This document shows, one piece after another, positions 22,923 to 64,000 of a stretch of DNA of 64,000 bases (position 1 is the first letter of the stretch; every line of letters starts with the position of its first letter). A model generated the notes under the pieces. That model was not told the DNA's origin. It did not search any database and saw only the letters and a list, made by a program, of their open reading frames with translations. Location: assembly GCA_965178125.1 (NCBI GenBank), contig OZ237738.1:868001-932000 (forward strand), written 5' to 3'. Origin of the DNA: Bilabrum cf. latius. Lineage: Eukaryota. The translations under genes and the position numbers were made by a program.

Positions 22923-22958
22923 CTAAATCAGAAATCGCCTAGCACTTTTTGCGAAGCA

Positions 22959-39491: not shown

Positions 39492-39612
39492 ATCGGAATT
39501 CACTTACTATTTTTGGCGCCTAAGTCTTGTATTGAACCAGGTAGCGACAGCAGAAAGTGACCACCGATACTAGTAGCCGCGCTATTGGCTTCATTTAGTC
39601 AGGCGGACTGCT

Positions 39613-45600: not shown

Positions 45601-48600
45601 TAGCAACTTCCAGCTGTTTTGTCACTTTTGAAGCAAGCTGTTCGGTCCTCACTGCACGATAGAGACCACACGACGGCTGCTGCTGCTTTGAGTGGCGTGG
45701 TCGCTCTGTGGGAGGGCACGCCGCCTGCCCACCTGCGTAGCCTGTCCCCGTCCTTTGCAGCTGCAGTGCTCCCGGCAATACACGGAGAAAGCACAGGTCA
45801 ATTGCCACTGCATCATCACGCCAGACTTCTCCTCAAGGATATATTTGGCGCTTCAGATCGGGCAGGGGAGGATGGTCGAAGCTCAGGGGCTGGGGCAAGC
45901 GCTGCGTCCAGAGCGGACCTGGCGCTGGTGCTGCCTAGGCCGCGGCATCTCAAGGGCGATTCCATCGACTGGCCCATGAAACTGGACAGCGAACAGACGC
46001 CCGACCGCCTGCTTCGATTTGCTTTGCAGCTGCGGCAGGGCGAGGAAGAAATCGTGCTGGTAGCCCTGCAGCAGCTCGAGACCTTCCTCTCGCAGTCGGT
46101 TGGTGACGTGTTAGAGCTGGCCGTAGGTTCCAGCGTCGCGGCGCATGGCTTGGTGCATCGCTCTGTTCCCATCATGGTCGCGGCACTACTCAGTGTTGTG
46201 TCTCGGTTTCAAAGTGATGCCGTGCGGGCTGCCGCCTGCCAGTGCATCGGCGCTCTAGGGGCCGTGAGTCCTTCTGCAATGCATGGCGAGTCCGGCTTTG
46301 CAACTGCATTCGAGCCAGCCACATCGGAGGATTCGGATGCAGCCGAGGAATTTGAAGATGCATCTTCGGCATCGGGTGCCAAAGGGTCCCTAAGCAGCAG
46401 TGCAGGCAGCGGGCGATCGCATGTTATCGTTGGTGCTTCGCAGTCAGTCAGTGCGGATGTCGTCAGAAGTGTATTCAGCGGGAAATCAGCGCATGGAACG
46501 GAAGCTGTCACAGCAATGTGGCAGCGAGGCGAGTTTGACGCATCGTACAGGCTTGAGCTCAAGGACGCCGAAGCCAGGCTTCGGATGGGCGTAGATACGA
46601 CAGGAACAGACTTGGCCACCCAGGTGCTGCCCACAGAGCTACTGCGCGGACGGTCTGGCACAGACTAGTACGGTCTTCAGAGCATTGGCGTTGCGCTGAT
46701 TGATAACCTTTTGGCCGCGACAGTAAGAGCAGCTCACTCCAGTGAGCAGCATAGCTGTGCTGCCTTCGCCATTCAGGAGGTGCTCCGCGTCATCGGGCGA
46801 ATACACGGGCTGAAGCAGTACTCGAGCATGACCGCTGCTCGTCAGCTGGAGAGCAAAAAGGCAATCGCAAAGCGTTTGCCGGGTGTGCAGAAGCTGTTTG
46901 GACAGGACGTGTCGACTGCGGAGGAGGAGTCTCGGTTCCCCTTCCGTCTCCGCCTACTGTTCTCAAAGGATGTCCTCGGGACTATCCTGCCGTTTTGGCA
47001 GTCGGACTACCTTGATGCAGGCGGGAGTCACGCCCGGTACGAGGAGGCCATCAGGGCGCTATTCCCAGGAATGGCCTCGGGTGATGGTAGCGCAGAGCAG
47101 CAGCAAGGCAAGGAGCGGCGGGCCGCTCCACAAGTTGGCAGTCTGGGATGGGCGTTGGTGCACGGCTAGACGGTGTTCAATTGGGTGCAGCAGCAACGGA
47201 ACGACCGTATGCCCGGAACGACTCTTGATATTTGGGTTAAGACATGGTGCAGATTGTTGCTTGAAGCGTTTGGATCCTGTTCCGGCTGGCAGGGCCATTG
47301 GGCTCGCCTTGCCAAGTGCCTCCGGTAGGTCGTGCTCAGGCTAGAGTCTGGTGCTAGGCAGATCCTTCCCATTGCGTTGCAATTAGTTGCTGTACGATGT
47401 CCCGAGGCTGTGGGTCGCAGGCTTATTCTTTAGGAGATTGCTGGAAGGCTCGAGGCAGCGGCTACTCGCGGAGACTTGCGGCCTGCTACAAGCATAGGCG
47501 TGCCTGCGCTTCACTCCAGCTCTGCATCCAGCGCTGTTTCCAGGTCGGACCAGATCGCAGCTGCGCGAGTTGCTTTAGACGCGATCGTGGTGCTGCAAGA
47601 CACGGATCCTGAGCGCGTAGAATCTCGACCACTGGTCGTTCGGATGCCTGATTCCGATGTAAAGCTCGGAACGGTCATTGCACGGGGCGCTGCTCAGCAG
47701 CACGCCAGTTCCCGCAGCGGTGGATCGTCCAAGGCAGCCGTTGCGGACACCTCCGTGCGGGCTGACGACGTGCGATTGGACGGGGCCAACAACTGGGATG
47801 AAATGGATCCCACACCTTTAGCTGACGATGACGAGGACAGAGGCGTGAGTGGACGCCGCCGGAATCCGACGTTAGTCCATGACACGGGTGGCAGTGATCT
47901 CGCCGAGGCTCTGCCGCGACTCCTGGTGGCTAGGGCAGCTGCAGAGGTGCATCAGTTGGGCTGGTCGATCCGAGAAATAGAGCAGGAACTTCGCGATAAG
48001 TCTGGACAGTTTGGAGGATCTGCTAGGATCGCAGCAGTAGATGACGGCGCGAGCTCTGGCGCTGCTAGCACCAGCAAGAGTGGCGCATCGTCCTCGTCCT
48101 CGTCCTCGTCTGCAGCATCCAAGAAGCAAGGAAAGAGAGCGTCGGGATCCGATGGCTCCTTTGCCGAAGACGGGCTTGGTGGGCTAGTCTGGGGAGATCT
48201 TCCGTACAATCGCATGGACCTTGCAGAGCTCCAGCAGGCCTACGCTCAACTTGAGGACCCGGACGGCTTGCACGGCGTGTCGGCGCTGCGATCACGCCTG
48301 ACTGCCTTTGGTTCGGGGGATGATCAGGCGCCCAATCCTTCGCAAGAGCCTGACGCCTCCGAGGCATCCAGCGACATGGAGATTATTGCAATCGATGGAG
48401 TCTCGACCAAGCCATCTGAAGAGAAAGCTAGGCAGCTCCGCACAGTCACAGAGACATCATCCGGGATTGCCGTTGCTGGCGGAAACTTTGACATGCATGG
48501 CACAGAGGATGCCGCTGCAACGGGCCGCAACACGGAGATGCTGCTTGGCATTCAAGAGCGGCTGCTAGATGCCGTGCACGGGGCTAAATGGCACGACGCC

Positions 48601-51600
48601 ATCGTTCTCCACGAGCAAGCACTCGCGGTTGTCCGATCGATGAGGGGCGTGCGACTGCCACCTAGCGTGCGATCCATGTCTGAGGACTAGCTGGAAGCCG
48701 GGCTGCTGGCTTGTCTTGGGGCTGCAGGCCACCAGGAGACGGCGCTACAGCGGGCGTAGGGGTTGCTCGGCCAGGGTCAGGCTGGCAGTGGCCTTGATCC
48801 AGTCGTTCGGCCCGCCGGAATTGAAGCGGCCTGGCGATTGGGCAAGTGGGGGTCCTTGCAATCGTTGCTCCAGGCAAGGCAGAGCCACAACCGGCTCGAT
48901 GTGCATGGTGGTAGTTTCGAAAGCCATCAGTTTTCCGGTGCATTTGGTTCCTCATTCCTTGCCCTGCGAGATGCAGCCATGGCCAGTCAGCGGACTGCCG
49001 CTGGTGCAGCCTCCGTGCCCCGCTCCGTGTCCTCGTTCGCAACACCTACTGTTGCCCTCGGTCGGGTGCGGGAGCTGTATCGAGCTGTGCGTCCAGTGCA
49101 GCGGCTGCTGCTGCACGAGACAGAACAGGCAAAGGCGAGGCGCGACGCCTAGAACCTCGCTAGCATTTCTACCTCTGAACCGGGCAGCACTGGCGGGGCA
49201 CAATTGCATCATCAACGAATGGTATCATCTCTAGCCGTGTTGCGACCAACCCCAAGCCTTTTGCCGTCAGCTTGCCGCCTGGATGGTGTGCTGATCGGAG
49301 CGCAGCAAGGAGGGGGGAGGGCAAGAGAGTTGGCGCTGCAGCTGTTACTCGGAAGCTCTTCGAGCAGGCTGCGGAGTCACGGCGATGCGTCTGCAAGGAC
49401 TGGGGACCACAGTAGCCGCACCGACCCCAGGCGGGCATTTGACGCCATAGCGACGCCGCAGTTCTTGGATTGCTGCAGGAGGCTTGGGGAAGGGCTTGCA
49501 GCGGCTCGCATAGCAGTGGGGCGTCGACTGGCAGAGGACTCGCCGGCTGGATACGGTGCGTGCTACCCGCACATCGTGCGGCTGCATCTGCTACGTGACA
49601 TGGAGCTTGCTGCGCGGTCTCTTGTGGAGCCGTCGGCCTAGGCTAGGCTGGCTGTGCTGCGAAGGCTGCTTCCCGAAGAGCGAATGAGGATGATGCGGCA
49701 GGATCTTGACACGCTGGAGCCAGTCCTGTCTTTGCACCGCATGCTCTTGCAATCTTTGGTAGGGAACCGGGCTCTGGTCGGCGAGGCATGGCTGCAGCTG
49801 GCCAAAGCAGCCCGGGACAGCGGCCGCTTCGCCACCGCCGATGCTGCCCTGCAGCACGCCGCGGGCCTGGGCAACGCCAAGGCGCGGCTGCACCGCGCCA
49901 AGCTGCTACACATGAAGGGCGACACGCTGGCGGCTCTCCACGAGATTGAGCCGGTTGAGATCAGCCACGAGCGTCTGCACGAGCGCGCAGCTTCCGTGCA
50001 GGACAAGCAAGCCAGGCACCTGGAGTCGAGACGGATCTTGCACGCGACCTCCTGGATGATCGAGGCAGACCGCGTGTCCTCGAGGATCGACGAGAGGTAC
50101 CAAGCAGCGATGAAGATGACGGCTCGACGGGACAAGCTGTACTTTCACATGGGGCTGTGGTACGATCGGTGCTTGCAGAGGCTGATGGACAGGGCCGATT
50201 CGCTGTCCCTGCGACACGGTAGCATGGCAGACAGCGGAGGTAATCGAGGGCGTTCCAAGAGCGGCGGCGCAGGCGGTCGCTCGGGGGTGGAGGCGTCCGC
50301 TCGAGAGATGGCCAGCCTCCACAGGCAGAGGGACGAGCTCGTATTCCTTGCGGCCAACATGTACGCCAAGGCGCTACGGCTGGGGGAGCACAGGTTCGTG
50401 TACCAGGCCATGCCTAGGCTGCTCACGCTTGTGCTGGACTACGGGGCAGCTGTGCAGCGCACAGCCGGCGCGGCGACTTTGGCAGGGGCTGGGGCGGTCG
50501 GTGGCAGCGGCAGCGGTGCTGTGACGCTATCGCAGATGCGCTCCTCTGATGAGATCCGGTCGCGCTCGGCCAGGATGGGGGACGCGCGGCAGGAAACGCT
50601 CAGTCGGCTCCTGCGCCGCATCGGCACGCTGCGAGACAACCTGCCGGGATACCTGTGGATGCTGGCCATGCCGCAGCTGGTGTCTCGGCTGTGCCATCGG
50701 CACCCGGACGTGATATCCATGATGTTCGACGTGATGAAGAGCATCGTGTACACGTACCACCAAGAGTCGCTGTGGATGGTCACCGGCCTAACAAAGAGCA
50801 GGGTGGCGATCCGAAAGCAGAGGGGGGAGAAGATCTGCCAAGCCGTCCGACGAGCCAGCCAGAACCACCAGCGGTCCATCGACATGCACAGCAGCCTCTT
50901 CGGGGACCTCATCCGTACCGCACAGCAGAAGCCCAAGGATTCCAAGGCGAAATCCATGAGCGTCCGCATCTCAAGCTCTCGGCAGTTCCGGGCGGTGCCG
51001 GTGCTCCTACCTACTCAGTCCGCGCTCACTGTGCGCCTCCCGGCTGGAGGAGCTTCAGGGGCTGCATCCGCGGCTGCAACGGCTGCCGCGGGCAGCGGTG
51101 CGGGCGGTGCATACCAGGCTGGGCATGGCGCGCTGGCAGGCTTCCCCCCGGCGGGAGTGCGCCCCACGATCGACCAGTTTGAGCAGCGAGCCAAGGTGAT
51201 GTCGAGCAAGGAGAAGCCCAAGCAGCTGACTGCCGTGGGCTCGGACGGTCGCAGGTACCACTTCCTGTGCAAGCAGGAGCTCTCGGGCGACTTGCGCAAG
51301 GACGCCCGCATGATGGAGCACTCCACGGTGGTGAACCGGCTGCTGGCGTCGGACCACGAGGCCAGCAGGCGCGCGCTCCGGCTGCGCACCTACAGCGTGA
51401 TCGTGACGAGCGAGAGCACGGGGCTCATGGAGTGGGTGGAAAACTGCACGCCGTTGCGCTTCGCCGTCAAGGAGGTCTACAATGACCTGGGCGTTGACAG
51501 TCCCATGCACCTAACGCTCCGTGTCATGAAGCCGCTGCAGAAGAACCAGGACAACCAGAATCAGACCACAGCAGCCACGGCAAGGTTCTTCGCCTCTGAG

Positions 51601-52386
51601 GTGCAGCCACAGTTCCCTGCGGTGCTGCACAGGTACCATCTGAAGCGCTTCGCTGACCCGGAGCGGTGGCTCCGGGCTCGGCAGCGGTTCACACGAAGCA
51701 CGGCCTGCTGGGCCATGGTGGGCCATCTGCTTGGGCTGGGCGATCGCCACGGAGAGAACCTGCTGATGGACGACACGAGCGGGGATCAGGTGCACGTGGA
51801 CTTCGACTGCCTGTTTGACAAGGGGCTGTCCCTGTCACGGCCCGAGGTGGTGCCCTTCCGCCTCACCGCCAACGTGCTGGATGCGATGGGCCTTTGGGGG
51901 TACGAGGGAGGCATGCGTCGGTCCAGCGAGGCGTGCATGGCGGTGCTACGTGCGAACGGGAGCACGCTGCTGGGCGTGCTGGAGTCCTTCGTGTACGATC
52001 CACTGGTGGAGTGGACTCGAAGCAAGAGCAAGGGAGGGAGGCACTCTTCTTCTTCTTCCTCGTCTTCGTCCTCGTCGGCGGCCGCGGGTGGCGCGGTGCT
52101 GCCGACCGACGAGGTGCCCAGCACGGCGGTGGGGGGCGAGGTGGAGAACATCGCCGGTGTGACGATTGTGAGGCACATCAAGGAGAGGCTGCGGGGAGGG
52201 TACAACGTGCGGCCGCCGCACCGGGACAAGTACAACGTGAGGACGAGGAGGCACGCTGCGGACGATGGCAGGCTTGCGGGGGGTCGCACGATCGGGGTGC
52301 AGGCGCAGGTGCACCGGCTGATCTCCGAGGCGTCATCGGTGGAGAACCTGGCCTAGATGTACGTTGGGTGGATGCCGTTCTTGTGA
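39613..52386 (+). CDS. ATR: ATR/Mec1 PIKK checkpoint kinase (~4257 aa, about 30 in-frame TAG)
   Basis: One frame from ATG 39613 to TGA 52384-52386. FAT region, then kinase motifs FLCKQELSGDLRKDARMME, GLMEWV, GLGDRHGENLL, HVDFDCLFDKG and PEVVPFRLT. FATC end ENLA(TAG)MYVGWMPFL. Confidence 0.92.
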
Positions 52387-52506
52387 AGTTGAGCGCCTCA
52401 GGTCTCAGGTCTGGGGTCGGGGAGGGGGGCGCTGCAGTGCACTGCACTGTGCCTTCTCCCGCGGGGCCGTGGGTGCTCAAGCTGCGGTTGGGAGTACAGA
52501 CTAGGA

Positions 52507-53013
52507 TTGCGAGGGAGTCGAGATTGGGCTGCAATTCGCACATTCTGCCTTGATTCCGATACGAGGCATTTCGACCGCCATCGCCCTCCTGCCTCTGAAT
52601 TCGTGCACAGGCTGAGGGGAAGCGCGCGGCGTGTGCCTGACGGGAGGGGTGCCGTCACAGCCGTGGCACAGGCCAAGCAAGAGAAGATCGGGATCCAGGG
52701 CTCGAGATCTGGCGCCGCGGCTGGGGCCAGTGCGGGTGCGGGTAGAGTGGGCGGTTCCGTAGGTGATGGTGGCTCTGGGCTGGGGCAGGGGTCCGCGGCA
52801 TCCACCAAGGAGGCCTTCTCCGTGGACGCGCTGGCGGCCCAGCTGAAGCGGTCCGACGAGGCCCTGATCAAGGGCCAGGCGTGGAGGGAGAAGCGGGCGG
52901 GGGCGCAGCAGCAGCAGCAGCAGAAGCAGCAGCAGCTGCAGGCGCGCAGGGAGAGGGTGGAGAAGGCGTCTGGCGAAGGAGGGGCAGCGAGCGAGAACGG
53001 CGCTTCTCCGTGA
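52507..53013 (+). CDS. Gly/Ala-rich, poly-Q ORF or gene 3' fragment, copy 1
   Basis: Coding-like composition (KEAFSVDALAAQLKRSDEALIKGQAWREKRAG, then Qn). No ATG in this copy. Confidence 0.3.
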   Translation: MRGSRDWAAIRTFCLDSDTRHFDRHRPPASEFVHRLRGSARRVPDGRGAVTAVAQAKQEKIGIQGSRSGAAAGASAGAGRVGGSVGDGGSGLGQGSAASTKEAFSVDALAAQLKRSDEALIKGQAWREKRAGAQQQQQQKQQQLQARRERVEKASGEGGAASENGASP

Positions 53014-53401
53014 GGAGGGATGTGGTGGGCTGTGCGTGGCCTGTTTGCTTCCTGTGAAGCTGATGTTCCAAGTAAGCGAGGCCGCCACGCCAGGCAAAGG
53101 CCGAGCACCTTGAAGTTGTGAACTTCTTGAAGATGAAAACAGCCTGAACCGGACCAGAGTGGATCGATCTCACCGACTCATTGTCAGTTTCATCGATACT
53201 GTTTCGAGTGCAGCATCCCCAACTAAAGCCTTTCTAGATACAGGGTTGAGTTGGAGCGAATCAGAACTAGCCGGCGAACAGGTACACAAGAGAAGGGCGT
53301 GCACAGTAAAGCTCGTATTCCCTGTCATTCTGACGTCGGCAGCCACCTGGCTGGCCTGCGTATCAGCAGTCGATACTGGATACAAATACTGCCTGGAAGC
53401 C

Positions 53402-55051
53402 ATGGAGCAAGCAGCAGGTGCACGCTCAGGGGAGGTGATCGATCTCGTCAGCAGCGACTCAAGCGACAGCGACTCTGGTGGAAGCGATGTCGAGGTTCCC
53501 GACCGCCGCATGAGCACGATTGCTGCATCGCTCTCATTGACCAGCAGTCGGTAGTGGGGCAGGCGAGAGGCAGGTGGGAAAGGTAGGGCCCGAGATTCAG
53601 CGAGCGATCGAGCCAAAGCTGTTCCCACGTCCATCGTGGCGTCGGGACACTCCAGCAGCAGCGCAATGTTGCCGCAAGAAGTGCAATCTTCAATGCAGTC
53701 AAGCTCAGGGGTAGATGCAAGCGGCGGCACCGATGCCTCTTTGGGCCAGAAGCGAGGCAGGCAGGTAGAGGCGAGGTCAGCAGACAGCTAGAGCGGATCG
53801 AGGGGAAAGAGACGGCGTGGGCAGGCAGGCGCAATCGGGGCAGGACATCGGTGCAGCATGTGCGGGCAGGCGTTCGGTGTGGCAGGCCATCTCAGGACGC
53901 ACATGAGGACTGTGCACATGGGCGAGCGCAAGCACGAGTGCATGGAGTGCGGCAAGTCATTCGGACAGGCAGGCAGTCTCAGGAGGCACATGAGGACTGT
54001 GCATGTTGGGGAGCGCAAGCACGAGTGCAGTGTGTGCGGCAAGTCATTCGGGCTGGCAGGCCATCTCAGGAGGCACATGAGGACCGTGCATCTGGGCGAG
54101 CGCAAGCACGAGTGCATGGTGTGCGGCAAGTCATTCGGTGTGGCAGGCAGTCTCAGGAGGCACATGAGCACTGTGCATTTGGGCGAGCGCAACCACGAGT
54201 GCATGGAGTGCGGCAAGTCATTCGGTGCGGCAGGCAGTCTCAGGACGCACATGAGGACCGTGCATCTGGGCGAGCGCAATCACGAGTGCAGTGTGTGCGG
54301 CAAGTCATTCGGACAGGCAAGCAATCTCAGGATGCACATGAGGACGGTGCACCTGGGCGAGCGCAAGCACGAGTGCAGTGTGTGCGGCAAGTCATTCGGG
54401 CTGGCAGGCAGTCTCAGGACGCACATGTCCACCGTGCATGTTGGGGAGCGCAAGCACGAGTGCAGTGTGTGCGGCAAGTCATTCGGACAGGCAGGCAGTC
54501 TCAGGAAGCACATGTCCACCGTGCATCTGGGCGAGCGCAAGCACGAGTGCATGGTGTGCGGTAAGTTATTCGGGCGGGCAAGCAATCTCAGGACGCACAT
54601 GTCCACCGTGCACATGAGCGAGCGCAAGCACGAGTGCAGTGTGTGCGGCAAGTCATTCGGGCGGGCAGGCGATCTCAGGACGCACATGAGGACCGTGCAT
54701 CTGGGCGAGCGCAACCACGAGTGCATGGAGTGCGGCAAGTCATTCGGACAGGCAGGCAATCTCAGGAGGCACATGAGGACCGTGCACATGGGCGAGCGCA
54801 AGCACGAGTGCATGGAGTGCGGCAAGTCATTCGGGCTGGCAAGCAATCTCAGGACGCACATGAGGACCGTGCATCTGGGCGAGCGCAAGCACGAGTGCAG
54901 TGTGTGCGGCAAGTCATTCGGGGAGGCAGGCAGTCTCAGGAGGCACATGAGGACCGTGCATCTGGGCGAGCGCAAGCACGAGTGCAGTGTGTGCGGCAAG
55001 TCATTCGGGCTGGCAGGCTCACTCAGGAGGCATACGCGGGGTTGCCATTGA
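53402..55051 (+). CDS. C2H2 zinc-finger array protein, copy 1 (14 fingers, ~549 aa)
   Basis: ATG 53402 MEQAAGARSGEVIDLVSSDSSDSD is in frame with the array through two TAG. Fourteen 29-aa CxxC-x12-H-x4-H units. Ends TGA. Confidence 0.9.
53852..55048 (+). repeat. 87-bp coding minisatellite, 14 units
   Basis: Repeat unit CACGAGTGC....TGCGGCAAGTCATTCGG....CTCAGG...CACATGAGGACCGTGCATCTGGGCGAGCGCAAG. Confidence 0.95.
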
Positions 55052-55686
55052 TTCGCTTGCAGTCTTGAACCTAGACTACAGATCAGATTTGTTCCTTCAA
55101 CCACAGTCTGCAGCGAGTGGCTCGGCGCTCGCTTTTGGATTGTGCACGCTGCATGAAATAAGGGGGAAGCTTAGGATGTCAGGACTAGATGTCCTGCACG
55201 TACCCCTCTTGTTCCTGTTACATGTACTCGGACATCAGGATTGAAGCTACGGGGAGCAGAGGTGAGACGGAAGACGAGGTGGGTGCAGGAGGACAGGAGG
55301 TGGAGAAGAACAGATGGAACACCGGCACAGGCGACGATAGTGCGGTGTCAATAGGGAGATCACAACGGGAGGAATGGGGGCTCCAGGTGCAAGGCGCGAG
55401 GGAGACGCGGGTGGCAGCGGGCTGCATGGCCAGCAGCGCGCAGAGGGCCAACAGGCGGGTGGACAGATGGGGCGCACGGCAGGTCGGCCAGGACCGGCGC
55501 GTGCAAGCTGAAAGGATAGGGCCAAGGCGGCAATGCAGGGAGCAAAGCACACGGTCCCTAGGGCGGGGAACAGGAACAGGAAGCCATGTGGCGGCGAGGC
55601 CAGTCGGTTGCATGGGCTTACGTAGGTACGATGGTACGCACCCATGCCTGGCAGGACCTTGACACTCGACTGCAGCACGTCCGAGG

Positions 55687-57176
55687 CTCTTCGGGGACCT
55701 CATCTGCACCGCGCAGCAGAAGCCCAAGGATTCCAAGGCGAAATCCATGAGCGTCCGCATCTCAAGCTCTCGGCAGTTCCGGGCGGTGCCGGTGCTCCTA
55801 CCTACTCAGTCCGCGCTCACTGTGCGCCTCCCGGCTGGAGGAGCTTCAGGGGCTGCATCTGCGGCTGCAACGGCTGCCGCGGGCAGCGGTGCGGGCGGTG
55901 CATACCAGGCTGGGCATGGCGCGCTGGCAGGCTTCCCCCCGGCGGGAGTGCGCCCCACGATCGACCAGTTTGAGCAGCGAGCCAAGGTGATGTCGAGCAA
56001 GGAGAAGCCCAAGCAGCTGACTGCCGTGGGCTCGGACGGTCGCAGGTACCACTTCCTGTGCAAGCAGGAGCTCTCGGGCGACTTGCGCAAGGACGCCCGC
56101 ATGATGGAGCACTCCACGGTGGTGAACCGGCTGCTGGCGTCGGACCACGAGGCCAGCAGGCGCGCGCTCCGGCTGCGCACCTACGCGTGATCGTGACGAG
56201 CGAGAGCACGGGGCTCATGGAGTGGGTGGAAAACTGCACGCCGTTGCGCTTCGCCGTCAAGGAGGTCTACAATGACCTGGGCGTTGACAGTCCCATGCAC
56301 CTAACGCTCCGTGTCATGAAGCCGCTGCAGAAGAACCAGGACAACCAGAATCAGACCACTGCAGCCACGGCAAGGTTCTTCGCCTCTGAGGTGCAGCCAC
56401 AGTTCCCTGCGGTGCTGCACAGGTACCATCTGAAGCGCTTTGCTGACCCGGAGCGGTGGCTCCGGGCTCGGCAGCGGTTCACACGAAGCACGGCCTGCTG
56501 GGCCATGGTGGGCCATCTGCTTGGGCTGGGCGACCGCCACGGAGAGAACCTGCTGATGGACGACACGAGCGGGGATCAGGTGCACGTGGACTTCGACTGC
56601 CTGTTTGACAAGGGACTGTCCCTGTCACGGCCCGAGGTGGTGCCCTTCCGCCTCACTGCCAACGTGCTGGATGCGATGGGCCTTTGGGGGTACGAGGGAG
56701 GCATGCGTCGGTCCAGCGAGGCGTGCATGGCGGTGCTACGTGCGAACGGGAGCACGCTGCTGGGCGTGCTGGAGTCCTTCGTGTACGATCCACTGGTGGA
56801 GTGGACTCGAAGCAAGAGCAAGGGAGGGAGGCACTCTTCTTCTTCTTCCTCGTCTTCGTCCTCGTCGGCGGCCGCGGGTGGCGCGGTGCTGCCGACCGAC
56901 GAGGTGCCCAGCACGGCGGTGGGGGGCGAGGTGGAGAACATCGCCGGTGTGACGATTGTGAGGCACATCAAGGAGAGGCTGCGGGGAGGGTACAACGTGC
57001 GGCCGCCGCACCGGGACAAGTACAACGTGAGGACGAGGAGGCACGCTGCGGACGATGGCAGGCTTGCGGGGGGTCGCACGATCGGGGTGCAGGCGCAGGT
57101 ACACCGGCTGATCTCCGAGGCGTCATCGGTGGAGAACCTGGCCTAGATGTACGTTGGGTGGATGCCGTTCTTGTGA
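55687..57176 (+). pseudogene. ATR: Duplicated 3' end of ATR (kinase domain and FATC) with a 1-bp deletion
   Basis: Near-identical to 50896-52386. TACAGCGTG becomes TACGCGTG at ~56185, shifting the frame inside the kinase N-lobe. 5' truncated. Confidence 0.85.
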
Positions 57177-57303
57177 AGTTGAGCGCCTCAGGTCTCAGGT
57201 CTGGGGTCGGGGGTCGGGGAGGGGGGCGCTGCAGGGCACTGCACTGTGCCTTCTCCCGCGGGGCCGTGGGTGCTCAAGCTGCGGTTGGGAGTACAGACTA
57301 GGA

Positions 57304-57701
57304 TTGCGAGGGAGTCGAGATTGGGCTGCAATTCGCACATTCTGCCTTGATTCCGATACGAGGCATCTCGACCGCCATCGCCCTCCTGCCTCTGGATTCG
57401 TGCACAGGCTGAGGGGAAGCGCGCGGCGTGTGCCTGACGGGAGGGGGTCCGTCGCAGCCGTGGCACAGGCCAAGCAAGACAAGATCGGGATCCGGGGCTC
57501 GAGATCTGGCGCCGCGGCGGGGGCCGGTGCGGGGGCGGGTGGAGTGGGCGGTTCCGTGGGTGATGGTGGCTCTGGGCTGGGGCAGGGGTCCGCGGCATCC
57601 ACCAAGGAGGCCTTCTCCGTGGACGCGCTGGCGGCCCAGCTGAAGCGGTCCGATGAGGCCCTGATCAAGGGCCAGGCGTGGAGGGAGAAGCGGGCGGGGG
57701 C

Positions 57702-57736
<35 letters not shown>

Positions 57737-57813
57737 TGCAGGCGCGCAGGGAGAGGGTGGAGAAGGCGTCTGGCGAAGGAGGGGCAGCGAGCGAGAACGG
57801 CGCTTCTCCGTGA
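57304..57813 (+). CDS. Gly/Ala-rich, poly-Q ORF or gene 3' fragment, copy 2
   Basis: Paralog of 52507-53013 with a pure CAG tract one codon longer. No ATG. Confidence 0.3.
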
Positions 57814-58205
57814 GGAGGGATGTGGTGGGCTGCGTGTGGCCTGATTGCTTCCTGTGAAGCTGGTGTTCCAAGTAAGTGAGGCCGCCACGCCAGGCAAAGG
57901 CCCAGCACCTTGAAGTTGTGAACTTCTTGAAGATGAAAACAGCCTGAACCGGACCAGAGTCGATCGATCTCACCGACGCATTGTCAGTTTCATCGATACT
58001 GTTTCGACTGCAGCATCCCCAACTAAAGCCTTTCTAGATACAGGGTTGAGTTGGAGCGAATCAGAACTGGCCGTCGAACAGGTACACACACAAGAGAAGG
58101 TCGTGCACAGTAAAGCTCGTATCCCCTGTCATTCTGTAGTCGGCGGCCACCTGGCTGGCTTGCGTATCAGCAGTTGATACTGGATACAAATACTGCCTGG
58201 AAGCC

Positions 58206-59507
58206 ATGGAGCAAGCAGCAGGTGCACGCTCAGGGGAGGTGATCGATCTCGTCAGCAGCGACTCAAGCGACAGCGACTCTGGTGAAAGCGATGTCGAGGT
58301 TCCCGACCGCCGCATGAGCACGATTGCTGCATCGCTATCATTGACCAGCAGTCGGTAGTGGGGCAGGCGAGAGGCAGGTGGGAAAGGTAGGGCCCGAGAT
58401 CAAGCCAGTGATCGAGCCAAAGCTGTTCCCACGCCCATCGTGGCGTCGGGACACTCCAGCAGCAACGCAATGTTACCGCAAGAAGAAGAATCTTCAATGC
58501 AGTCAAGCTCAGGGGTAGATGCAAGCGGCGGCACCGATGCCTCTGTGGGCCAGAAGCGAGGCAGGCAGGTAGAGGCGAGGTCAGCAGACAGCTAGAGCGG
58601 ATCGAGGGGAAAGAGACGGCGTGGGCAGGCAGGCGCAATCGGGGCAGGACATCGGTGCAGCGTGTGCGGGCAGGCGTTTGGACAGGCAGGCAGTCTCAGG
58701 ACGCACATGAGGACCGTGCATCTGGGCGAGCGCAAGCACGAGTGCAGTGTGTGCGGCAAGTCATTCGGGCAGGCAGGCAGTCTCAGGACGCACATGAGGA
58801 CTGTGCATCTGGGCGAGCGCAAGCACGAGTGCATGGTGTGCGGCAAGTCATTCGGGGAGGCAGGCTCACTCAGGACGCACATGAGGACCGTGCACATGGG
58901 CGAGCGCAAGCACGAGTGCAGTGTGTGCGGCAAGTCATTCGGACGGGCAGGCGATCTCAGGACGCACATGAGGACCGTGCATCTGGGCGAGCGCAAGCAC
59001 GAGTGCATGGTGTGCGGCAAGTCATTCGGGCGGGCAAGCGATCTCAGGACGCACATGAGGACCGTGCACCTGGGCGAGCGCAAGCACGAGTGCATGGAGT
59101 GCGGCAAGTCATTCGGACAGGCAGGCAATCTCAGGACGCACATGAGGACCGTGCATCTGGGCGAGCGCAAGCACGAGTGCAGTGTGTGCGGCAAGTCATT
59201 CGGGCGGGCAGGCCATCTCAGGACGCACATGAGGACCGTGCATCTGGGCGAGCGCAAGCACGAGTGCATGGTGTGCGGCAAGTCATTCGGTGCGGCAGGC
59301 AGTCTCAGGAGGCACATGAGGACTGTGCATCTGGGCGAGCGCAAGCACGAGTGCAGTGTGTGCGGCAAGTCATTCGGGCTTGCAGGCAATCTCAGGACGC
59401 ACATGAGGACCGTGCATCTGGGCGAGCGCAAGCACGAGTGCATGGAGTGCGGCAAGTCATTCGGACAGGCAGGCGATCTCAAGAGGCACACGCGAGGTTG
59501 CCACTGA
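58206..59507 (+). CDS. C2H2 zinc-finger array protein, copy 2 (10 fingers, ~433 aa)
   Basis: Same N-terminus, with the ATG 456 nt before the ORF-track start. Ten 87-bp units. Ends TGA. Confidence 0.9.
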
Positions 59508-60124
59508 TTCGCTAGCATTCTGTAGCGAGTGGCTCGGCGCTTGACATTGGATTTTGCACGCTGCATTAAAAAAGGGTGAAGCTTGGGATGTCAGGACTTG
59601 AAAGAAAATTCCTGCCCCCGGTCCCGAGGACCCACTGGGCTTCACCCCGAACGACTGGTTCTTCACCGGTCCACCTGAATGCGGTACTCATCCGACACTA
59701 CGAATATACACGCCACTTTCTCAATGCACGCGCGACTGGCCTCGTCGCCACATGGCTACCTGTTCCTGTTCCTCGCCCTAGGTACCGTGTGCTTTGCTCC
59801 CAGCATTGCCACCTTGGCCCAATCCTTTCAGCTTGCACGCGCCGGTCCTGGCCGACCTGCTGCGCCCCATCTGTCCACCCACCTGTTGGCCCTCTGCGTG
59901 CTGCTGGCCATGCAGTCCGCTGCCACCCGCGCCTCTCTCGTGCCTTGCACCTGGAGCCCCCATTTCTCCCGTTGTGTTCTCCCTGTTGACACCGCACTGT
60001 CGTCGCCTGTGCCGGTGCCCCCCTCTGTTCTTCTCCACCTCCTGTCCTCCTGCGCCCACCTCGCCTTCCGGCTCACCTCTGCTCCCCGTCGCTTCAATCC
60101 TGATGTCCGAGTACATAAAACAAG

Positions 60125-60723
60125 ATGTCCTGCACGAATTGCTCTTGTTCTGAGCACTCCTCTTGTTCTATCATGCTCCCTTGGGTACGATGGTACGTAC
60201 CCATGCCTGGCAGGGCCTTGACACTCGACTGCAGCACGTCGGAGGCCCGGCCCCGGATGCCGTTCGCCCGCCCGCCGGGCCGTGGGTGCTCGAGCTGCGG
60301 TTGGGAGTGCAAACTAGGATTGGGAGGGAGTCGAGATCAGGCTGCTGTCTGCACACTCTGCCTTGATTCCGATACGAGGCATCTCGACCGCCATCGCCCT
60401 CCTGCCTCTGGATTCGTGCACAGGCTGAGGGGAAACGCGCGGCGTGTGCCTGACGGGAGGGGTGCCGTCACAGCCGTGGCACAGGCCAAGCAAGACAAGA
60501 TCGGGATCCGGGGCTCGAGATCTGGCGCCGCGGCGGGGGCCGGTGCGGGGGCGGGTGGAGTGGGCGGTTCCGTGGGTGATGGTGGCTCTGGGCTGGGGCA
60601 GGGGTCCGCGGCATCCACCAAGGAGGCCTTCTCCGTGGACGCGCTGGCGGCCCAGCTGAAGCGGTCCGATGAGGCCCGGATCAAGGGCCAGGCGTGGAGG
60701 GAGAAGCGGGCGGGGGCGCAGCA

Positions 60724-60754
<31 letters not shown>

Positions 60755-60826
60755 GCGCGCAGGGAGAGGGTGGAGAAGGCGTCCGGCGAAGGAGGGGCAG
60801 CGAGCGAGAACGGTGCTTCTCCGTGA
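60125..60826 (+). CDS. Gly/Ala-rich, poly-Q ORF, copy 3 (open from an ATG across the unit junction)
   Basis: 233-aa ORF with the same C-terminal half as copies 1 and 2. Confidence 0.35.
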
Positions 60827-61217
60827 GGAGGGATGTGGTGGGTTGCGCGTGGCCTGATTGCTTCCTGTGAAGCTGATGTTCCAAGTAAGCGAGGCCGCCA
60901 CGCCAGGCAAAGGCCCAGCACCTTGAAGTTGTGAACTTCTTGAAGATGAAAACAGCCTGAACCGGACTAGAGTGGATCGATCTCACCGACGCATTGTCAG
61001 TTTCATCGATACTGTTTCGACTGCAGTATCCCCAACTAAAGCCATTCTAGATACAGGGTTGAGTTGGAGCAAATCAGAACTGGCCGTCGAACAGGTACAC
61101 ACACAAGAGAAGGTCGTGCACAGTAAAGCTCGTATCCCCTGTCATTCTGTAGTCGGCGGCCACCTGGCTGGCTGCGTATCAGCAGTCGATACTGGATACA
61201 AATACTGCCTGGAAGCC

Positions 61218-62867
61218 ATGGAGCAAGCAGCAGGTGCACGCTCAGGGGAGGTGATCGATCTCGTCAGCAGCGACTCAAGCGACAGCGACTCTGGTGAAAG
61301 CGATGTCGAGGTTCCCGACCGCCGCATGAGCACGATTGCTGCATCGCTATCATTGACCAGCAGTCGGTAGTGGGGCAGGCGAGAGGCAGGTGGGAAAGGT
61401 AGGGCCCGAGATTCAGCGAGTGATCGAGCCAAAGCTGTTCCCACGTCCATCGTGGCGTCGGGACACTCCAGCAGCAGCGCAATGTTGCCGCAAGAAGTGC
61501 AATCTTCAATGCAGTCAAGCTCAGGGGTAGGTGCAAGCGGCGGCACCGATGCCTCTGTGGGCCAGAAGCGAGGCAGGCAGGCAGAGGCGAGGTCAGCAGA
61601 CAGCTAGAGCGGATCGAGGGGAAAGAGACGGCGTGGACAGGCAGGCGCAATCGGGGCAGGACATCGGTGCAGCGTGTGCGGGCAGGCGTTTGGACAGGCA
61701 GGCAGTCTCAGGACGCACATGAGGACTGTGCATCTGGGCGAGCGCAAGCACGAGTGCATGGTGTGCGGCAAGTCATTCGGGGAGGCAGGCAGTCTCAGGA
61801 GGCACATGAGGACTGTGCATCTGGGCGAGCGCAAGCACGAGTGCAGTGTGTGCGGCAAGTCATTCGGACGGGCAGGCAATCTCAGTAGGCACATGTCCAC
61901 TGTGCATCTGGGCGAGCGCAAGCACGAGTGCATGGTGTGCGGCAAGTCATTCGGTGCGGCAGGCCATCTCAGGACGCACATGAGGACCGTGCATCTGGGC
62001 GAGCGCAAGCACGAGTGCAGTGTGTGCGGCAAGTCATTCGGACAGGCTGGCAATTTCAGGAGGCACATGAGGACCGTGCATCTGGGCGAGCGCAAGCACG
62101 AGTGCATGGTGTGCGGCAAGTCATTCGGGCTGGCAGGCCATCTCAGGACGCACATGAGGACCGTGCACATGGGCGAGCGCAAGCACGAGTGCATGGTGTG
62201 CGGCAAGTCATTCGGGGAGGCAGGCAGTCTCAGGACGCACATGAGGACTGTGCATCTGGGCGAGCGCAATCACGAGTGCATGGTGTGCGGCAAGTCATTC
62301 GGGCTGGCAGGCAATCTCAAGACGCACATGAGGACTGTGCACATGGGCGAGCGCAAGCACGAGTGCAGTGAGTGCGGCAAGTCATTCGGGGAGGCAGGCT
62401 ATCTCAGGACGCACATGAGGACCGTGCATCTAGGCGAGCGCAAGCACGAGTGCATGGTGTGCGGCAAGTCATTCGGACAGGCAGGCAATCTCAGGACGCA
62501 CATGAGGACTGTGCATCTAGGCGAGCGCAAGCACGAGTGCATGGTGTGCGGCAAGTCATTCGGGGAGGCAGGCAGTCTCAGGACGCACATGAGGACCGTG
62601 CATCTAGGCGAGCGCAAGCACGAGTGCATGGTGTGCGGCAAGTCATTCGGACAGGCAGGCAATCTCAGGACGCACATGAGGACTGTGCATCTAGGCGAGC
62701 GCAAGCACGAGTGCATGGTGTGCGGCAAGTCATTCGGGGAGGCAGGCAGTCTCAGGACGCACATGAGGACTGTGCATCTGGGCGAGCGCAAGCACGAGTG
62801 CAGTGTGTGCGGCAAGTCATTCGGACAGGCAGGCGATCTCAAGAGGCACACGCGAGGTTGTCACTGA
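61218..62867 (+). CDS. C2H2 zinc-finger array protein, copy 3 (14 fingers, ~549 aa)
   Basis: Same N-terminus. Fourteen 87-bp units with a helix-residue series different from copy 1. Ends TGA. Confidence 0.9.
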
Positions 62868-64000
62868 TTCGCTAGCATTCTGTAGCGAGTGGCTCGGCGC
62901 TTGACATTGGATTGTGCACGCTGCATTCAAAAAGGGTGAAGCTTGGGATGTCAGGACTTGAAAGAAAATTCCTGCCCCCGGTCCCGCGGACCCACTGGGC
63001 TTCACCCTGAACGACTGGTTTTTCACCGGTCCACCTGAATGCGGTATTCATCCGACACTACGAATGTACACGCCACTTTCCCCATGCACGCGCGACTGGC
63101 CTCGTCGCCACATGGCTACCTGTTCCTGTTCCCCGCCCTAGGGACCGTGTGCTTTGCTCCCTGCATTGCCGCCTTGGCCCAATCCTTTCAGCTTGCACGC
63201 ACCGGTCCTGGCCGACCTGCTGCGCCCCATCTGTCCACCCGCCTGTTGGCCCTCTGCGTGCTGCTGGCCATGCAGTCCGCTGCCACCCGCGTCTCCCTCG
63301 TGCCTTGCACCTGGAGCCCCCATTCCTCCCGTTGTGTTCTCCCTGTTGACACCGCACTGTCGTCGCCTGTGCCGGTGTCCCCCTGTTCTTCTCCACCTCC
63401 TGTCCTCCTGCGCCCACCCCGTCTTCCGGCTCACCTCTGCTCCCCGTCGCTTCAATCCTGATGTCCGAGTACATAAAACAAGATGTCCTGCACGAATTGC
63501 TCTTGTTCTGAGCACTCCTCTTGTTCTATCATGCTCCCTTGGGTACGATAGTACGTACCCATGCCTGGCAGGGCCTTGACACTCGACTGCAGCACGTCGG
63601 AGGCCCGGCCCCGGATGCCGTTCGCCCGGCCGCGGGGCCGTGGGTGCTCCAGCTGCGGTTGGGAGTGCAGACTAGGATTGGCGAGGGAGTCGTGATCAGG
63701 CTGCTGTCCGTACAGTCTGCCTTGATTCCGATACGAGGTATCTCTACCGCCATCGCCCTCCTGCCTCTGGATTCGTGCACAGGCTGAGGGGAAGCGCGCG
63801 GCGTGTGCCTGACGGGAGGGGGTCCGTCGCAGCCGTGGCACAGGCCAAGCAAGAGAAGATCGGGATCCGGGGCTCGAGATCTGGCGCCGCGGCTGGGGCC
63901 GGTGCGGGTGCGGGTGGAGTGGTCGGTTCCGTGGGTGATGGTGGCTCTGGGCTGGGGCAGGGGTCCGCGGCATCCACGAAGGAGGACTTCTCCGTGGACG

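What the first reader, a model, noticed from the sequence alone, without database searches (positions are those of the whole stretch)
53402..62867. Tandem family of minisatellite C2H2 zinc-finger genes hypervariable at DNA-contact positions (PRDM9/KRAB-ZNF-like pattern in a protist)
Seen: three paralogs carry 14, 10 and 14 copies of an 87-bp unit that is almost invariant even at synonymous sites. Helix position -1 takes Q/E/R/L/V/A, +2 takes G/S, +3 takes S/N/H/D/Y and +6 takes T/R/M/K. At +6 the codon is ANG with all four bases in the middle, and -1 is nearly always (C/G)NG. Each paralog has its own finger order: copy 1 starts VAGH-QAGS-LAGH-VAGS, copy 2 QAGS-QAGS-EAGS-RAGD, copy 3 QAGS-EAGS-RAGN-AAGH. 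Established: -1, +2, +3 and +6 set base specificity in C2H2 fingers, and concerted minisatellite evolution with diversification at those sites is the PRDM9 signature. Inference: a recombination-reprogrammable DNA-recognition system under diversifying selection, possibly for transposon or viral silencing or for recombination targeting. It uses an atypical linker (HLGERKHEC, HX4H) and has no SET or KRAB domain.
Basis: partly seen in the sequence, partly recalled or inferred. Interest (0 to 1): 0.88.

Follow-up and report, generated by a model that had tools for sequence, protein, structure and literature searches.

The report
Fast-evolving zinc-finger gene cluster, protist
An unidentified single-celled eukaryote carries a row of near-identical genes for long chains of DNA-reading zinc fingers that differ mainly at the base-contacting residues, a pattern described so far almost only in animals.

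Summary
Three tandem paralogs end in 14, 10 and 14 C2H2 fingers of one 87-bp unit, and a fourth copy starts at the window's end. Variation concentrates at helix positions -1, +3 and +6, less at +2. These 4 of 29 codons hold 47% of nonsynonymous differences. Their pN is 2.2 times the array-wide pS, against 0.37 for the other codons. Flanks differ by 1.6-4.6%, yet no array register aligns below 9.4%, so finger order has been reshuffled.

New here: the organism reads TAG as a sense codon. Genes are intronless and densely packed, with a 4297-codon ATR frame holding 34 in-frame TAG. Each zinc-finger gene is then one ATG-to-TGA frame of 433-549 codons. It has a disordered, homolog-free N-terminus carrying a SUMO-interaction-like motif, and no SET or KRAB domain.

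Best reading: a young, tandemly expanding family of sequence-specific DNA binders whose specificity is diversified by array recombination plus selection, working like KRAB-ZNF families. It is not a member of the KRAB-ZNF or PRDM9 families. Function, targets and expression are untested. No close relatives were found in any database searched.

The parts
53402..55051 (+). Zinc-finger gene 1: ATG to TGA, 549 codons, N-terminal 150 residues plus 14 fingers
   Evidence: Single ATG-started frame under TAG=sense. Pfam finds zf-C2H2 only.
53852..55048 (+). Array A: 14 units of 87 bp, the last lacking the linker
58206..59507 (+). Zinc-finger gene 2: ATG to TGA, 433 codons, 10 fingers
   Evidence: Identical 24-base start found at 58206. 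Translation printed. N-terminus 95% identical to copy 1.
58656..59504 (+). Array B: 10 units
61218..62867 (+). Zinc-finger gene 3: ATG to TGA, 549 codons, 14 fingers
61668..62864 (+). Array C: 14 units. C10 equals C12 and C11 differs from C13 by 2 bases, a recent two-unit duplication.
53552..53554 (+). First in-frame TAG of gene 1, conserved in all three copies
53789..53791 (+). Second in-frame TAG of gene 1, conserved in all three copies
53435..53488 (+). SUMO-interaction-like motif: hydrophobic core VIDLV followed by a Ser/Asp run. Identical in the three copies except one G/E.
   Evidence: Sequence. The PIAS1 SIM is VIDLT with core (I/V)DLT (PMC4907222 passages). Binding not tested.
52458..53401 (+). 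Upstream spacer co-duplicated with each gene. Other copies lie at 57255-58205 and 60271-61217, and a fourth begins at 63630-64000.
   Evidence: Self-BLAST and alignment A1. Divergence 3.2-4.6%.
63630..64000 (+). Start of a fourth repeat unit, running off the window
   Evidence: 93-95% identical to the spacers of copies 1 and 2
39493..52386 (+). Neighbouring ATR-type kinase gene. One 4297-codon frame with 34 in-frame TAG, ending in TGA. Its 3' end lies inside the first repeat unit.
55684..57176 (+). Duplicated, frameshifted 3' fragment of the ATR gene between zinc-finger genes 1 and 2
   Evidence: 95.7% identical to 50893 onward. Two reading frames are needed (55747-56190 and 56058-57146).
55222..55606 (.). 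About 390 bp of the 3' flank, inverted in copy 1 relative to copies 2 and 3 (59733-60116 and 63081-63474)

Best explanation
This is a young, tandemly duplicated cluster of genes for sequence-specific DNA-binding poly-zinc-finger proteins. At least four copies exist, in a gene-dense, intron-poor, GC-rich non-animal eukaryote that reads TAG as an amino acid.

Each protein has a disordered N-terminus of about 150 residues. It carries a SUMO-interaction-like acidic motif and basic nuclear-localisation-like patches, followed by 10-14 near-identical fingers.

New binding specificities arise in two ways. First, unequal recombination and gene conversion within and between the 87-bp arrays reorder, duplicate and delete finger modules. 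Second, point changes arise at the base-contacting codons. Selection retains the changes at the contacts and removes them elsewhere.

The likely role is to aim a common effector function at fast-changing DNA targets. That effector is possibly SUMO-dependent chromatin repression acting through the N-terminal motif. In this it would work like animal KRAB-, FiNZ- or ZAD-type zinc-finger families.

Shown: the anatomy, the genetic code, the reshuffling, and the excess of contact-site change. Inferred: DNA binding, the selective cause, the effector, the targets, and expression.
For: Anatomy:
- There are 38 of 38 intact fingers in three arrays.
- Only C2H2 families are found in Pfam.
- The best solved relatives are DNA-bound arrays: ZFP568 at 1.5e-62, CTCF, and PRDM9 at 4.7e-30.
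- AlphaFold2 gives three beta-beta-alpha fingers (block pLDDT 65-85) after a mostly low-confidence N-terminus (mean pLDDT 37-53 per 10-residue block over residues 1-150).

Gene models:
- Each gene is one ATG-to-TGA frame if TAG is sense.
- The code is supported by 132 in-frame TAG in 13 long frames. These include a 4297-codon ATR frame and frames of 3490 and 2927 codons carrying kinase and cNMP-binding domains.

Young tandem duplication:
- Repeat units are 93-96% identical, and one captured a now frameshifted ATR 3' fragment.

Array turnover:
- N-termini and spacers differ by 1.6-4.6%, but the best array register differs by 9.4-11%.
- First fingers (B1/C1, 1 difference) and last fingers (B10/C14, 4 differences) are stable.
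- C10-C13 is a fresh two-unit duplication.
- There are 26 distinct contact signatures among 38 fingers, 18 of them private to one array.

Selection pattern:
- pN at the contact codons is 0.316 against an array-wide pS of 0.145, a ratio of 2.18. Bootstraps give 1.70-2.86 and 1.36-4.67.
- The same ratio for the other 25 codons is 0.37.
- Four units (A3, A13, B7, B9) share an identical 75-base backbone but carry the contact sets LGHR, EGSR, RGHT and LGNT.

Effector lead:
- VIDLV plus a Ser/Asp run resembles the PIAS1 SIM VIDLT.
Against: - No RNA or protein evidence shows that the genes are expressed.
- No binding or target data exist, and no alleles from other strains were compared.
- The dN/dS-type comparison is between repeats of one haplotype that exchange sequence, so its units are not independent. 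Codon 9 synonymous variants are tightly linked to the -1 residue (GGA-CAG 8, GGG-GAG 7, GGT-GCG/GTG 4 of 32). Part of the diversity is therefore old modules being shuffled, not recurrent adaptive mutation.
- The N-terminus has no detectable homolog, and its few differences show no codon-position bias. Its coding status rests on frame continuity alone.
- The SUMO motif is a resemblance only.
- The window shows no clear transposon. Only one low-GC 887-codon frame of unknown family is present.
- Array copy numbers depend on one assembly that I could not check across the repeats.
Confidence: 0.6

Rival explanations
1. These are ordinary lineage-specific transcription factors. The paralogs regulate different host genes, and the contact-site differences reflect subfunctionalisation after duplication, not an arms race or genome defence.
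For: The anatomical evidence is the same as for the best explanation. A picoalga, Bathycoccus, has a 48-member C2H2 family with a short N-terminus, an acidic region and 2-6 fingers. Its describers link it to cell-surface scale biogenesis, not to genome defence (PMC3491373 passages).
Against: Long arrays of 10-14 fingers, very recent duplication (flank dS 0.027-0.045) and wholesale reshuffling of finger order are unusual for stable regulators. Contact pN exceeds pS.
Confidence: 0.15
2. This is neutral minisatellite churn. The arrays expand, contract and convert without selection for new specificities. Contact positions vary only because they are structurally unconstrained, and the genes may be weakly expressed or not expressed.
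For: Synonymous diversity is not small (pS 0.145), and contact variants travel with linked synonymous markers. No RNA holder was available to show expression.
Against: Relaxed constraint gives pN/pS up to 1, not 2.18 with bootstrap lower bounds of 1.36-1.70. All 38 fingers keep their ligands and reading frame, and the other codons show pN/pS of 0.37, so the arrays are under purifying selection as proteins.
Confidence: 0.12
3. This is PRDM9-like designation of meiotic recombination sites by a hypervariable finger array.
For: The array is minisatellite-encoded with contact-site hypervariability. PRDM9 is among the solved relatives.
Against: No PR/SET, KRAB or SSXRD domain is found anywhere in the 549-residue protein. 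At least four tandem paralogs exist instead of one polymorphic gene. The N-terminus has no homolog.
Confidence: 0.05
4. The fingers bind RNA or proteins instead of DNA, or the arrays are an assembly artefact.
For: C2H2 fingers can bind proteins (statement in PMC3491373 passages). Arrays of 87-bp repeats in 93-96% identical paralogs are hard to assemble.
Against: Variation sits at the four canonical base-contacting positions. The best sequence relatives are DNA-bound arrays. The frame and ligands are intact in 38 of 38 units. Distinct unit orders with stable first and last units argue against collapse or chimeric assembly. Contigs from four other runs reach from the N-terminal region into the first finger (table 8).
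Confidence: 0.05

Closest known systems
Animal KRAB-ZNF families, and the analogous FiNZ-ZNF (cyprinid fish) and ZAD-ZNF (insect) families
   Same: These are tandem clusters of young paralogs with long C2H2 arrays and excess change at the base-contacting residues. Specificity modules are joined to a common N-terminal region. The closest solved structure is a KRAB-ZFP, ZFP568. Positive selection at contact residues is the cited arms-race signature (PMC10547256 passages).
   Different: - No KRAB, FiNZ, ZAD, SCAN or BTB domain is present.
- The N-terminus has no homolog in 1.84 billion representatives.
- The fingers use H-x4-H and an LGERKHE linker, not the H-x3-H and TGEKP-type linkers seen in the animal hits. 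The period is 29 residues.
- The host is a non-animal eukaryote with a variant code.
- Repression of transposons is not shown.
PRDM9
   Same: The finger array is minisatellite-encoded. Units are near-identical apart from -1, +3 and +6, and repeat number and order turn over quickly.
   Different: There is no PR/SET, KRAB or SSXRD domain. The gene is multi-copy instead of single-copy. Allelic diversity and a meiotic role are untested.
Expanded C2H2 family of the green picoalga Bathycoccus prasinos (48 copies)
   Same: This is a non-animal, lineage-specific expansion. Its architecture is a short N-terminal part, a strongly acidic region, then C2H2 fingers (PMC3491373 passages). The proteins here have 11 residues, then VIDLV plus an acidic Ser/Asp run.
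   Different: Bathycoccus has 2-6 fingers against 10-14 here. The passages I read report no 87-bp minisatellite or contact-site hypervariability. Sequence relatedness was not tested, and no close relative of any kind was found.
Unnamed environmental proteins with the same finger subtype (P0269, P0270, P0282)
   Same: The helix pattern is FG-x-AG-x-LR-x-H-xx-TVH with H-x4-H. They are 53-63% identical to the window's first finger. The most variable positions are again -1, +3 and +6: 5/4/4, 4/5/5 and 2/3/2 distinct residues.
   Different: They have longer C-x4-C or C-x12-C knuckles and periods of 31-37 residues. Their other domains differ: P0269 has a T5orf172 domain at its C-terminus. Their origin is unknown, since they come from metagenome assemblies.

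Membership tests
Classical C2H2 zinc finger (Pfam PF00096), tandem poly-ZF type | C-x2-4-C-x12-H-x3-5-H with a conserved hydrophobic core, repeated with short linkers | tested here: met
   38 of 38 units match. zf-C2H2 scores E=6e-87 and zf-H2C2_2 scores 1.8e-103. The fingers are modelled as beta-beta-alpha.
KRAB-ZNF | N-terminal KRAB domain | tested here: not met
   No Pfam family at E<=1 in the 150 N-terminal residues. Only finger families are found in the rest.
KRAB-ZNF | Tandem gene clusters with excess nonsynonymous change at contact residues | tested here: met
   At least four tandem copies. pN(contact)/pS is 2.18.
KRAB-ZNF | Recruits a corepressor to silence transposons | not testable with these tools
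   No genome, expression or binding data were available.
PRDM9 | PR/SET methyltransferase domain (with KRAB and SSXRD in functional orthologs) | tested here: not met
PRDM9 | Minisatellite-encoded finger array, hypervariable at -1, +3 and +6 | tested here: met
PRDM9 | Single gene with many alleles, with meiotic expression and hotspot binding | tested here: inconclusive
   The gene is multi-copy here. Alleles and expression could not be examined.
SUMO-interacting motif (phospho-SIM type) | Short hydrophobic core, (I/V)DLT-like, flanked by acidic or phosphorylatable Ser residues. Binds SUMO. | tested here: inconclusive
   The sequence is present and conserved in 3 of 3 copies. It is compared with the PIAS1 VIDLT motif and the CK2-phosphorylated Daxx SIM (PMC4907222 and PMC9371903 passages). 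Binding was not tested.
Nuclear code with UAG sense and UAA/UGA stop (as in Iotanema spirale and the rhizarian exLh) | In-frame UAG inside conserved genes, while UAA still terminates | tested here: met
   132 in-frame TAG in 13 frames. Making TAA or TGA sense does not lengthen the longest frame. Stops are 11 TGA and 2 TAA, the two TAA-ended genes lying tail to tail 78 bp apart.
Nuclear code with UAG sense and UAA/UGA stop | Identity of the encoded residue (Gln in Iotanema, Leu in exLh) | tested here: inconclusive
   In ATR homologs the TAG columns hold E 31, R 29, Q 22 and L 12 of 205 residues. The one strongly conserved column, in the FATC tail, has Q in 6 of 11. Gln is likeliest, Glu is not excluded, and Leu is unlikely.
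Bathycoccus-type expanded C2H2 family | Short N-terminus, an acidic stretch, then 2-6 fingers | tested here: inconclusive
   The N-terminus and acidic stretch are similar (against PMC3491373 passages). The finger number differs, at 10-14. Homology was not tested.

The most novel reading that the evidence does not exclude
This is an independently evolved, non-animal counterpart of the KRAB-ZNF system: an adaptive, recombination-reprogrammable DNA-recognition family. A minisatellite array supplies ever-new specificities, and a short SUMO-interacting N-terminal motif supplies the silencing function. It would be used against transposons or integrated or giant viruses in a protist with a UAG-sense genetic code. 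The same finger subtype, with the same contact-site variability, appears in unnamed environmental proteins. One of these has a T5orf172 domain. This would make it a widespread but undescribed protist or viral class.
Probability: 0.25. Interest if true: 0.85.

Novelty: new variant of a known kind. Interest (0 to 1): 0.62.

Why it matters
Two papers I read in passages describe fast-diversifying, extensively duplicated C2H2 families as essentially an animal trait.
[quoted passage not shown] A protist cluster with the full evolutionary signature would be a counter-example. That signature is tandem young paralogs, minisatellite arrays, reshuffled finger order, and contact-site change above the synonymous rate. 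It would give a simple, intron-free system for asking what drives such families. It would also test whether a short SUMO-binding motif can stand in for a KRAB-like effector domain.

The host's code is also of interest in its own right. UAG is sense while UAA and UGA remain stops. That decoupling was first documented in only two lineages (PMC5304391 abstract).

Tried and rejected
- **Own genome.** None is held, so no genome-wide census of units was possible.
- **Protein searches for relatives.**
  - Array, 230-734 aa: best identity 56%, all named hits animal ZNFs.
  - Full gene, proteins under 238 aa: best identity 58%.
  - Exhaustive HMMER with the N-terminus plus first finger: 2186 hits at E<=0.001. 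In all 150 listed, the best stretch lies within query residues 114-179, so none covers residues 1-113.
- **Metagenome scan.** 15 pattern matches gave 3 loci at 27-44% identity, which were not used further.
- **ATR search to place the organism.** The best hits are Chlorella and Micractinium at 32% and Branchiostoma at 30%. The lineage stays unresolved.
- **RNA and earlier notes.** There are no tRNA genes and no Rfam match. Earlier scan notes returned nothing in 3 of 3 look-ups.
- **Sequencing runs.**
  - 12 rows hold part of the stretch, and no RNA holder is listed.
  - Four runs were laid on 50000-53940 only. All are contigs, so they say nothing about expression, strand or splicing.
Array alleles in other runs therefore remain unseen.
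  - Bins without cover in X6 and X7 carry no meaning.
  - The two 'joints' in X2 (depth 2-2.7, side 27-31) were not interpreted.
- **Upstream open frame.** The 207-codon frame at 52393-53013, which includes the polyQ stretch, has no ATG and shows no codon-position bias among copies (11/8/10 differences). I rejected it as an exon or gene for lack of evidence.
- **Introns.** An intron-containing gene model was considered first. I dropped it once TAG-as-sense explained both in-frame stops.
- **3' flank.** A search for inverted repeats flanking the 390-bp inverted piece found none.
- **Low-GC frame.** The 887-codon frame at 36698-39361 has no Pfam family at E<=0.001. Only weak hits appear at E<=1, the best 0.0021.
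- **Literature.** Four searches sought a described non-animal family of this kind. Apart from Bathycoccus, I saw none in these listings and in the passages I read. Two searches on the code did not identify this organism. Supplements were not consulted.
- **Target prediction.** I considered predicting target motifs from a recognition code and scanning the window. I did not do it: the code would be recalled from memory, and 64 kb gives no power.


Full report
**1. What is there**

Tandem Repeats Finder reports three arrays of an 87-bp unit: 53881-55032, 58655-59490 and 61667-62850. They have 13.2, 9.6 and 13.6 copies at 88-90% matches. Read in frame, they encode 14, 10 and 14 fingers of the form C-x2-C-x12-H-x4-H, joined by a 7-residue linker (LGERKHE). 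All 38 fingers keep their four zinc ligands, and none has a frameshift or stop.

Pfam sees only C2H2 families, with zf-C2H2 at E=6e-87 and 14 stretches in copy 1. The best solved relatives by sequence are DNA-bound arrays: ZFP568 at 1.5e-62, the designed protein Aart, CTCF, and PRDM9 at 4.7e-30. The extra residue of H-x4-H is aligned as a gap.

No other fingers of this type occur in the first 53 kb. Of 41 regular-expression hits in six frames, only 3 lie outside the arrays, and all 3 look like chance.

**2. The organism reads TAG as sense, which settles the gene models**

The frame that holds the fingers continues upstream to an ATG at 53402. It is interrupted only by two TAG codons, which are conserved in all three copies.

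- Under the standard code the longest frame in the window is 904 codons.
- With TAG read through, the window resolves into long frames: 4297 codons (39493-52386, an ATR-type kinase with FAT, HEAT_ATR, PI3_PI4_kinase and FATC), 3490, 2927, 1071, 1061 and so on.
- Reading TAA or TGA through does not lengthen the longest frame.
- The ATR frame holds 34 in-frame TAG. Thirteen long frames hold 132 TAG in 17524 codons. They end in TGA 11 times and TAA twice. The two TAA-ended genes lie tail to tail, 78 bp apart.
- The 3490- and 2927-codon frames carry protein-kinase and cNMP-binding domains. Other frames carry rhomboid, UBA and purine-permease domains.

In an alignment with 11 ATR homologs, the TAG columns are enriched in E, R and Q and depleted in L. 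The single strongly conserved column, in the FATC tail, has Q in 6 of 11. TAG is therefore most likely Gln. Glu is not excluded.

Genes are intronless here and lie about 100 bp apart. The ATR protein is only 32% identical to its best named hits, Chlorella and Micractinium, so I cannot place the organism. It is clearly not an animal.

A code with UAG sense and UAA/UGA stop was first documented in just two lineages (PMC5304391 abstract). A search listing also shows such reassignments in some ciliates (PMC11687900).

**3. The genes**

Under this code each zinc-finger gene is one ATG-to-TGA frame:
- 53402-55051, 549 codons
- 58206-59507, 433 codons
- 61218-62867, 549 codons

The 150-residue N-terminus is 95-97% identical among copies. 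It has no Pfam family even at E<=1. AlphaFold2 models most of it at low confidence (mean pLDDT 37-53 per 10-residue block over residues 1-150), while the three fingers included are modelled as beta-beta-alpha with 10-residue-block pLDDT of 65-85.

An exhaustive HMMER search of 1.84 billion representatives gave 2186 hits. In each of the 150 listed, the best-scoring stretch lies within query residues 114-179. That is the finger and the basic run before it. Residues 1-113 have no detectable relative.

Residues 12-29 read VIDLV followed by a Ser/Asp run. The SUMO-interacting motif of PIAS1 is VIDLT, with core (I/V)DLT (PMC4907222 passages). SIMs flanked by CK2-phosphorylated serines are known for Daxx and PML (PMC9371903 passages). 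This is a lead for an effector function, not a test.

**4. The cluster**

Self-comparison shows tandem repeat units:
- 50893-54686 matches 55684-59490 at 95.7%.
- 57255-59490 matches 60271-62502 at 94.9%.
- 58655-60641 matches 62015-64000 at 94.2%.
- A fourth unit begins at 63630 and runs off the window.

The first unit captured 1.5 kb of the 3' end of the ATR gene. The copy at 55684-57176 now needs two reading frames, so it is a pseudogene fragment. About 390 bp of the 3' flank is inverted in copy 1 relative to copies 2 and 3.

Contigs from four public runs were laid on 50000-53940. They cover the N-terminal region and reach into the first finger. Their summed depth over the first finger is about 100-150 times that over the single-copy part of ATR in X1 (18365 against 124) and X2 (242 against 2-2.5). 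The tool warns that this is not a copy number. Loose ends in 4 of 4 runs join the same helix-coding sequence to other finger starts (CGKRFG instead of CGKSFG). I take both together as a hint of many more fingers of this kind elsewhere in those genomes.

**5. Where the variation lies**

Among the 32 internal units:
- -1 takes Q9 E7 L6 R6 A3 V1.
- +2 takes G28 S4.
- +3 takes S13 N11 H4 D3 Y1.
- +6 takes T21 R9 M1 K1.
- Other variable codons are the two inside CxxC (M/S, E/V), +9 (R/S), linker 1 (L/M/V) and linker 5 (K/N).
- Common synonymous variants sit at codons 9, 20, 22 and 23.

For the 35 units with a full linker:
- The four contact codons hold 2.84 of 6.02 mean nonsynonymous differences. 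Only 58 of 23751 four-codon sets reach that.
- pN at the contacts is 0.316, against an array-wide pS of 0.145.

The ratio is 2.18. Bootstrapping gives 1.70-2.86 over units and 1.36-4.67 over codons. No replicate in either bootstrap reached 1 or less. The other 25 codons give 0.37, with range 0.30-0.45.

In 27 nearest-neighbour pairs, 44 of 99 differences fall in the 12 contact-codon bases, where 13.8% is expected. Four units (A3, A13, B7, B9) have identical 75-base backbones but carry LGHR, EGSR, RGHT and LGNT at the contacts.

Against a purely mutational picture, the synonymous third base of codon 9 is tightly linked to the -1 codon: GGA-CAG 8, GGG-GAG 7, GGG-CTG 5, GGT-GCG/GTG 4 of 32. Many contact variants are therefore established modules that are copied and moved.

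These comparisons are between repeats of one haplotype that exchange sequence. The statistics are suggestive, not a formal proof of positive selection.

**6. Array turnover**

Spacers and N-termini of the paralogs differ by 1.6-4.6%, with N-terminal dS of 0.027-0.045. No register of any two arrays gives less than 9.4-11% divergence, which is about the level of random unit pairs.

- First fingers are stable in place (B1/C1, 1 difference), as are last fingers (B10/C14, 4 differences).
- Nearest relatives of internal units often lie in another array (A3-B7, A10-B4 and B8-C2, 2 differences each).
- C10 equals C12, and C11 differs from C13 by 2 bases, which marks a fresh two-unit duplication.
- There are 26 distinct four-residue contact signatures among 38 fingers. 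Eighteen occur in one array only, and none occurs in all three.

Each paralog should therefore read a different long DNA sequence.

**7. How it most likely works**

Shown:
- canonical poly-finger anatomy
- a young tandem cluster
- reshuffled arrays
- contact-site change above the synonymous rate, with purifying selection elsewhere

Inferred:
- The proteins bind DNA sequence-specifically.
- Unequal recombination and gene conversion, together with point changes, generate new specificities that selection retains.
- The shared N-terminus delivers a common function, possibly SUMO-dependent repression, to targets that change quickly.

This works like the KRAB-, FiNZ- and ZAD-type families of animals. 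It is not a member of those families, because the defining domains were tested and are absent. A PRDM9-like role is unlikely, because there is no PR/SET domain and the gene is multi-copy.

**8. Comparison and novelty**

No close relative exists in the collections searched. The maximum identity is 56-58%, to animal ZNFs and unnamed fragments. Metagenome loci reach 27-44%.

The nearest finger subtype occurs in three unnamed environmental proteins, P0269, P0270 and P0282, at 53-63% identity to the first finger. They share H-x4-H and the pattern FG-x-AG-x-LR-x-H-xx-TVH. In them -1, +3 and +6 are again the most variable positions. One has a T5orf172 domain. Their origin is unknown.

The passages I read describe fast-diversifying, extensively duplicated C2H2 families as an animal trait (PMC5588721; PMC10547256). 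One non-animal precedent for a lineage-specific expansion is Bathycoccus. It has 48 copies with a short N-terminus, an acidic region and 2-6 fingers (PMC3491373 passages). Those passages mention no minisatellite arrays or contact-site analysis. Four literature searches found no described non-animal family with this signature. Supplements were not seen.

I rate this a new variant of a known kind.

**9. Limits**

- There is no expression, binding, target or population data.
- There is one assembly and one window.
- The arrays themselves were not checked against reads.
- The host is unidentified.
- The residue encoded by TAG is not settled.

Noticed in passing
whole window, e.g. 39493-52386, 12576-23048 (-), 24484-33267 (-): TAG is a sense codon. 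There are 132 in-frame TAG in 13 long intronless frames, while TGA (11) and TAA (2) end them. The encoded residue is most likely Gln. Genes lie about 100 bp apart in 58-62% GC DNA. A code with UAG sense and UAA/UGA stop is rare, and I could not place the organism.
   Followed up: partly
55684-57176: The first repeat unit of the cluster carries a duplicated 3' fragment of the neighbouring ATR gene. It is now frameshifted, which shows that the cluster grew by unequal crossing-over next to ATR.
   Followed up: partly
55222-55606 vs 59733-60116 and 63081-63474: About 390 bp of the 3' flank of the zinc-finger genes is inverted in copy 1 relative to copies 2 and 3. No flanking inverted repeats were found.
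   Followed up: partly
36698-39361 (+): An 887-codon frame lies in a low-GC island, 51% against about 60% around it. It has no Pfam family at E<=0.001. It is possibly foreign or mobile.
   Followed up: partly
52393-53013 (+), also in copies 2 and 3: A 207-codon open frame, Gly/Ala-rich with a polyQ run, has no ATG. It lies in the roughly 1 kb spacer upstream of each zinc-finger gene. That spacer is unusually long for this compact genome. Differences among copies show no codon-position bias.
   Followed up: partly
proteins P0269, P0270, P0282 (metagenome assemblies): These environmental proteins carry the same H-x4-H 'TVH' finger subtype in near-identical repeats that vary mostly at -1, +3 and +6. 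P0269 ends in a T5orf172 domain. The class may be widespread in protists or their viruses.
   Followed up: partly
53873-53917 (loose ends of laid contigs): In 4 of 4 laid runs, contigs join the window's helix-coding sequence to different finger starts (CGKRFG type). This points to further, different arrays elsewhere in those genomes.
   Followed up: no
12576-23048 (-): A 3490-codon frame has a protein-kinase domain matched by Pfam in two separate stretches (the best at residues 1999-2142). Proteins here are very long and rich in low-complexity runs.
   Followed up: no
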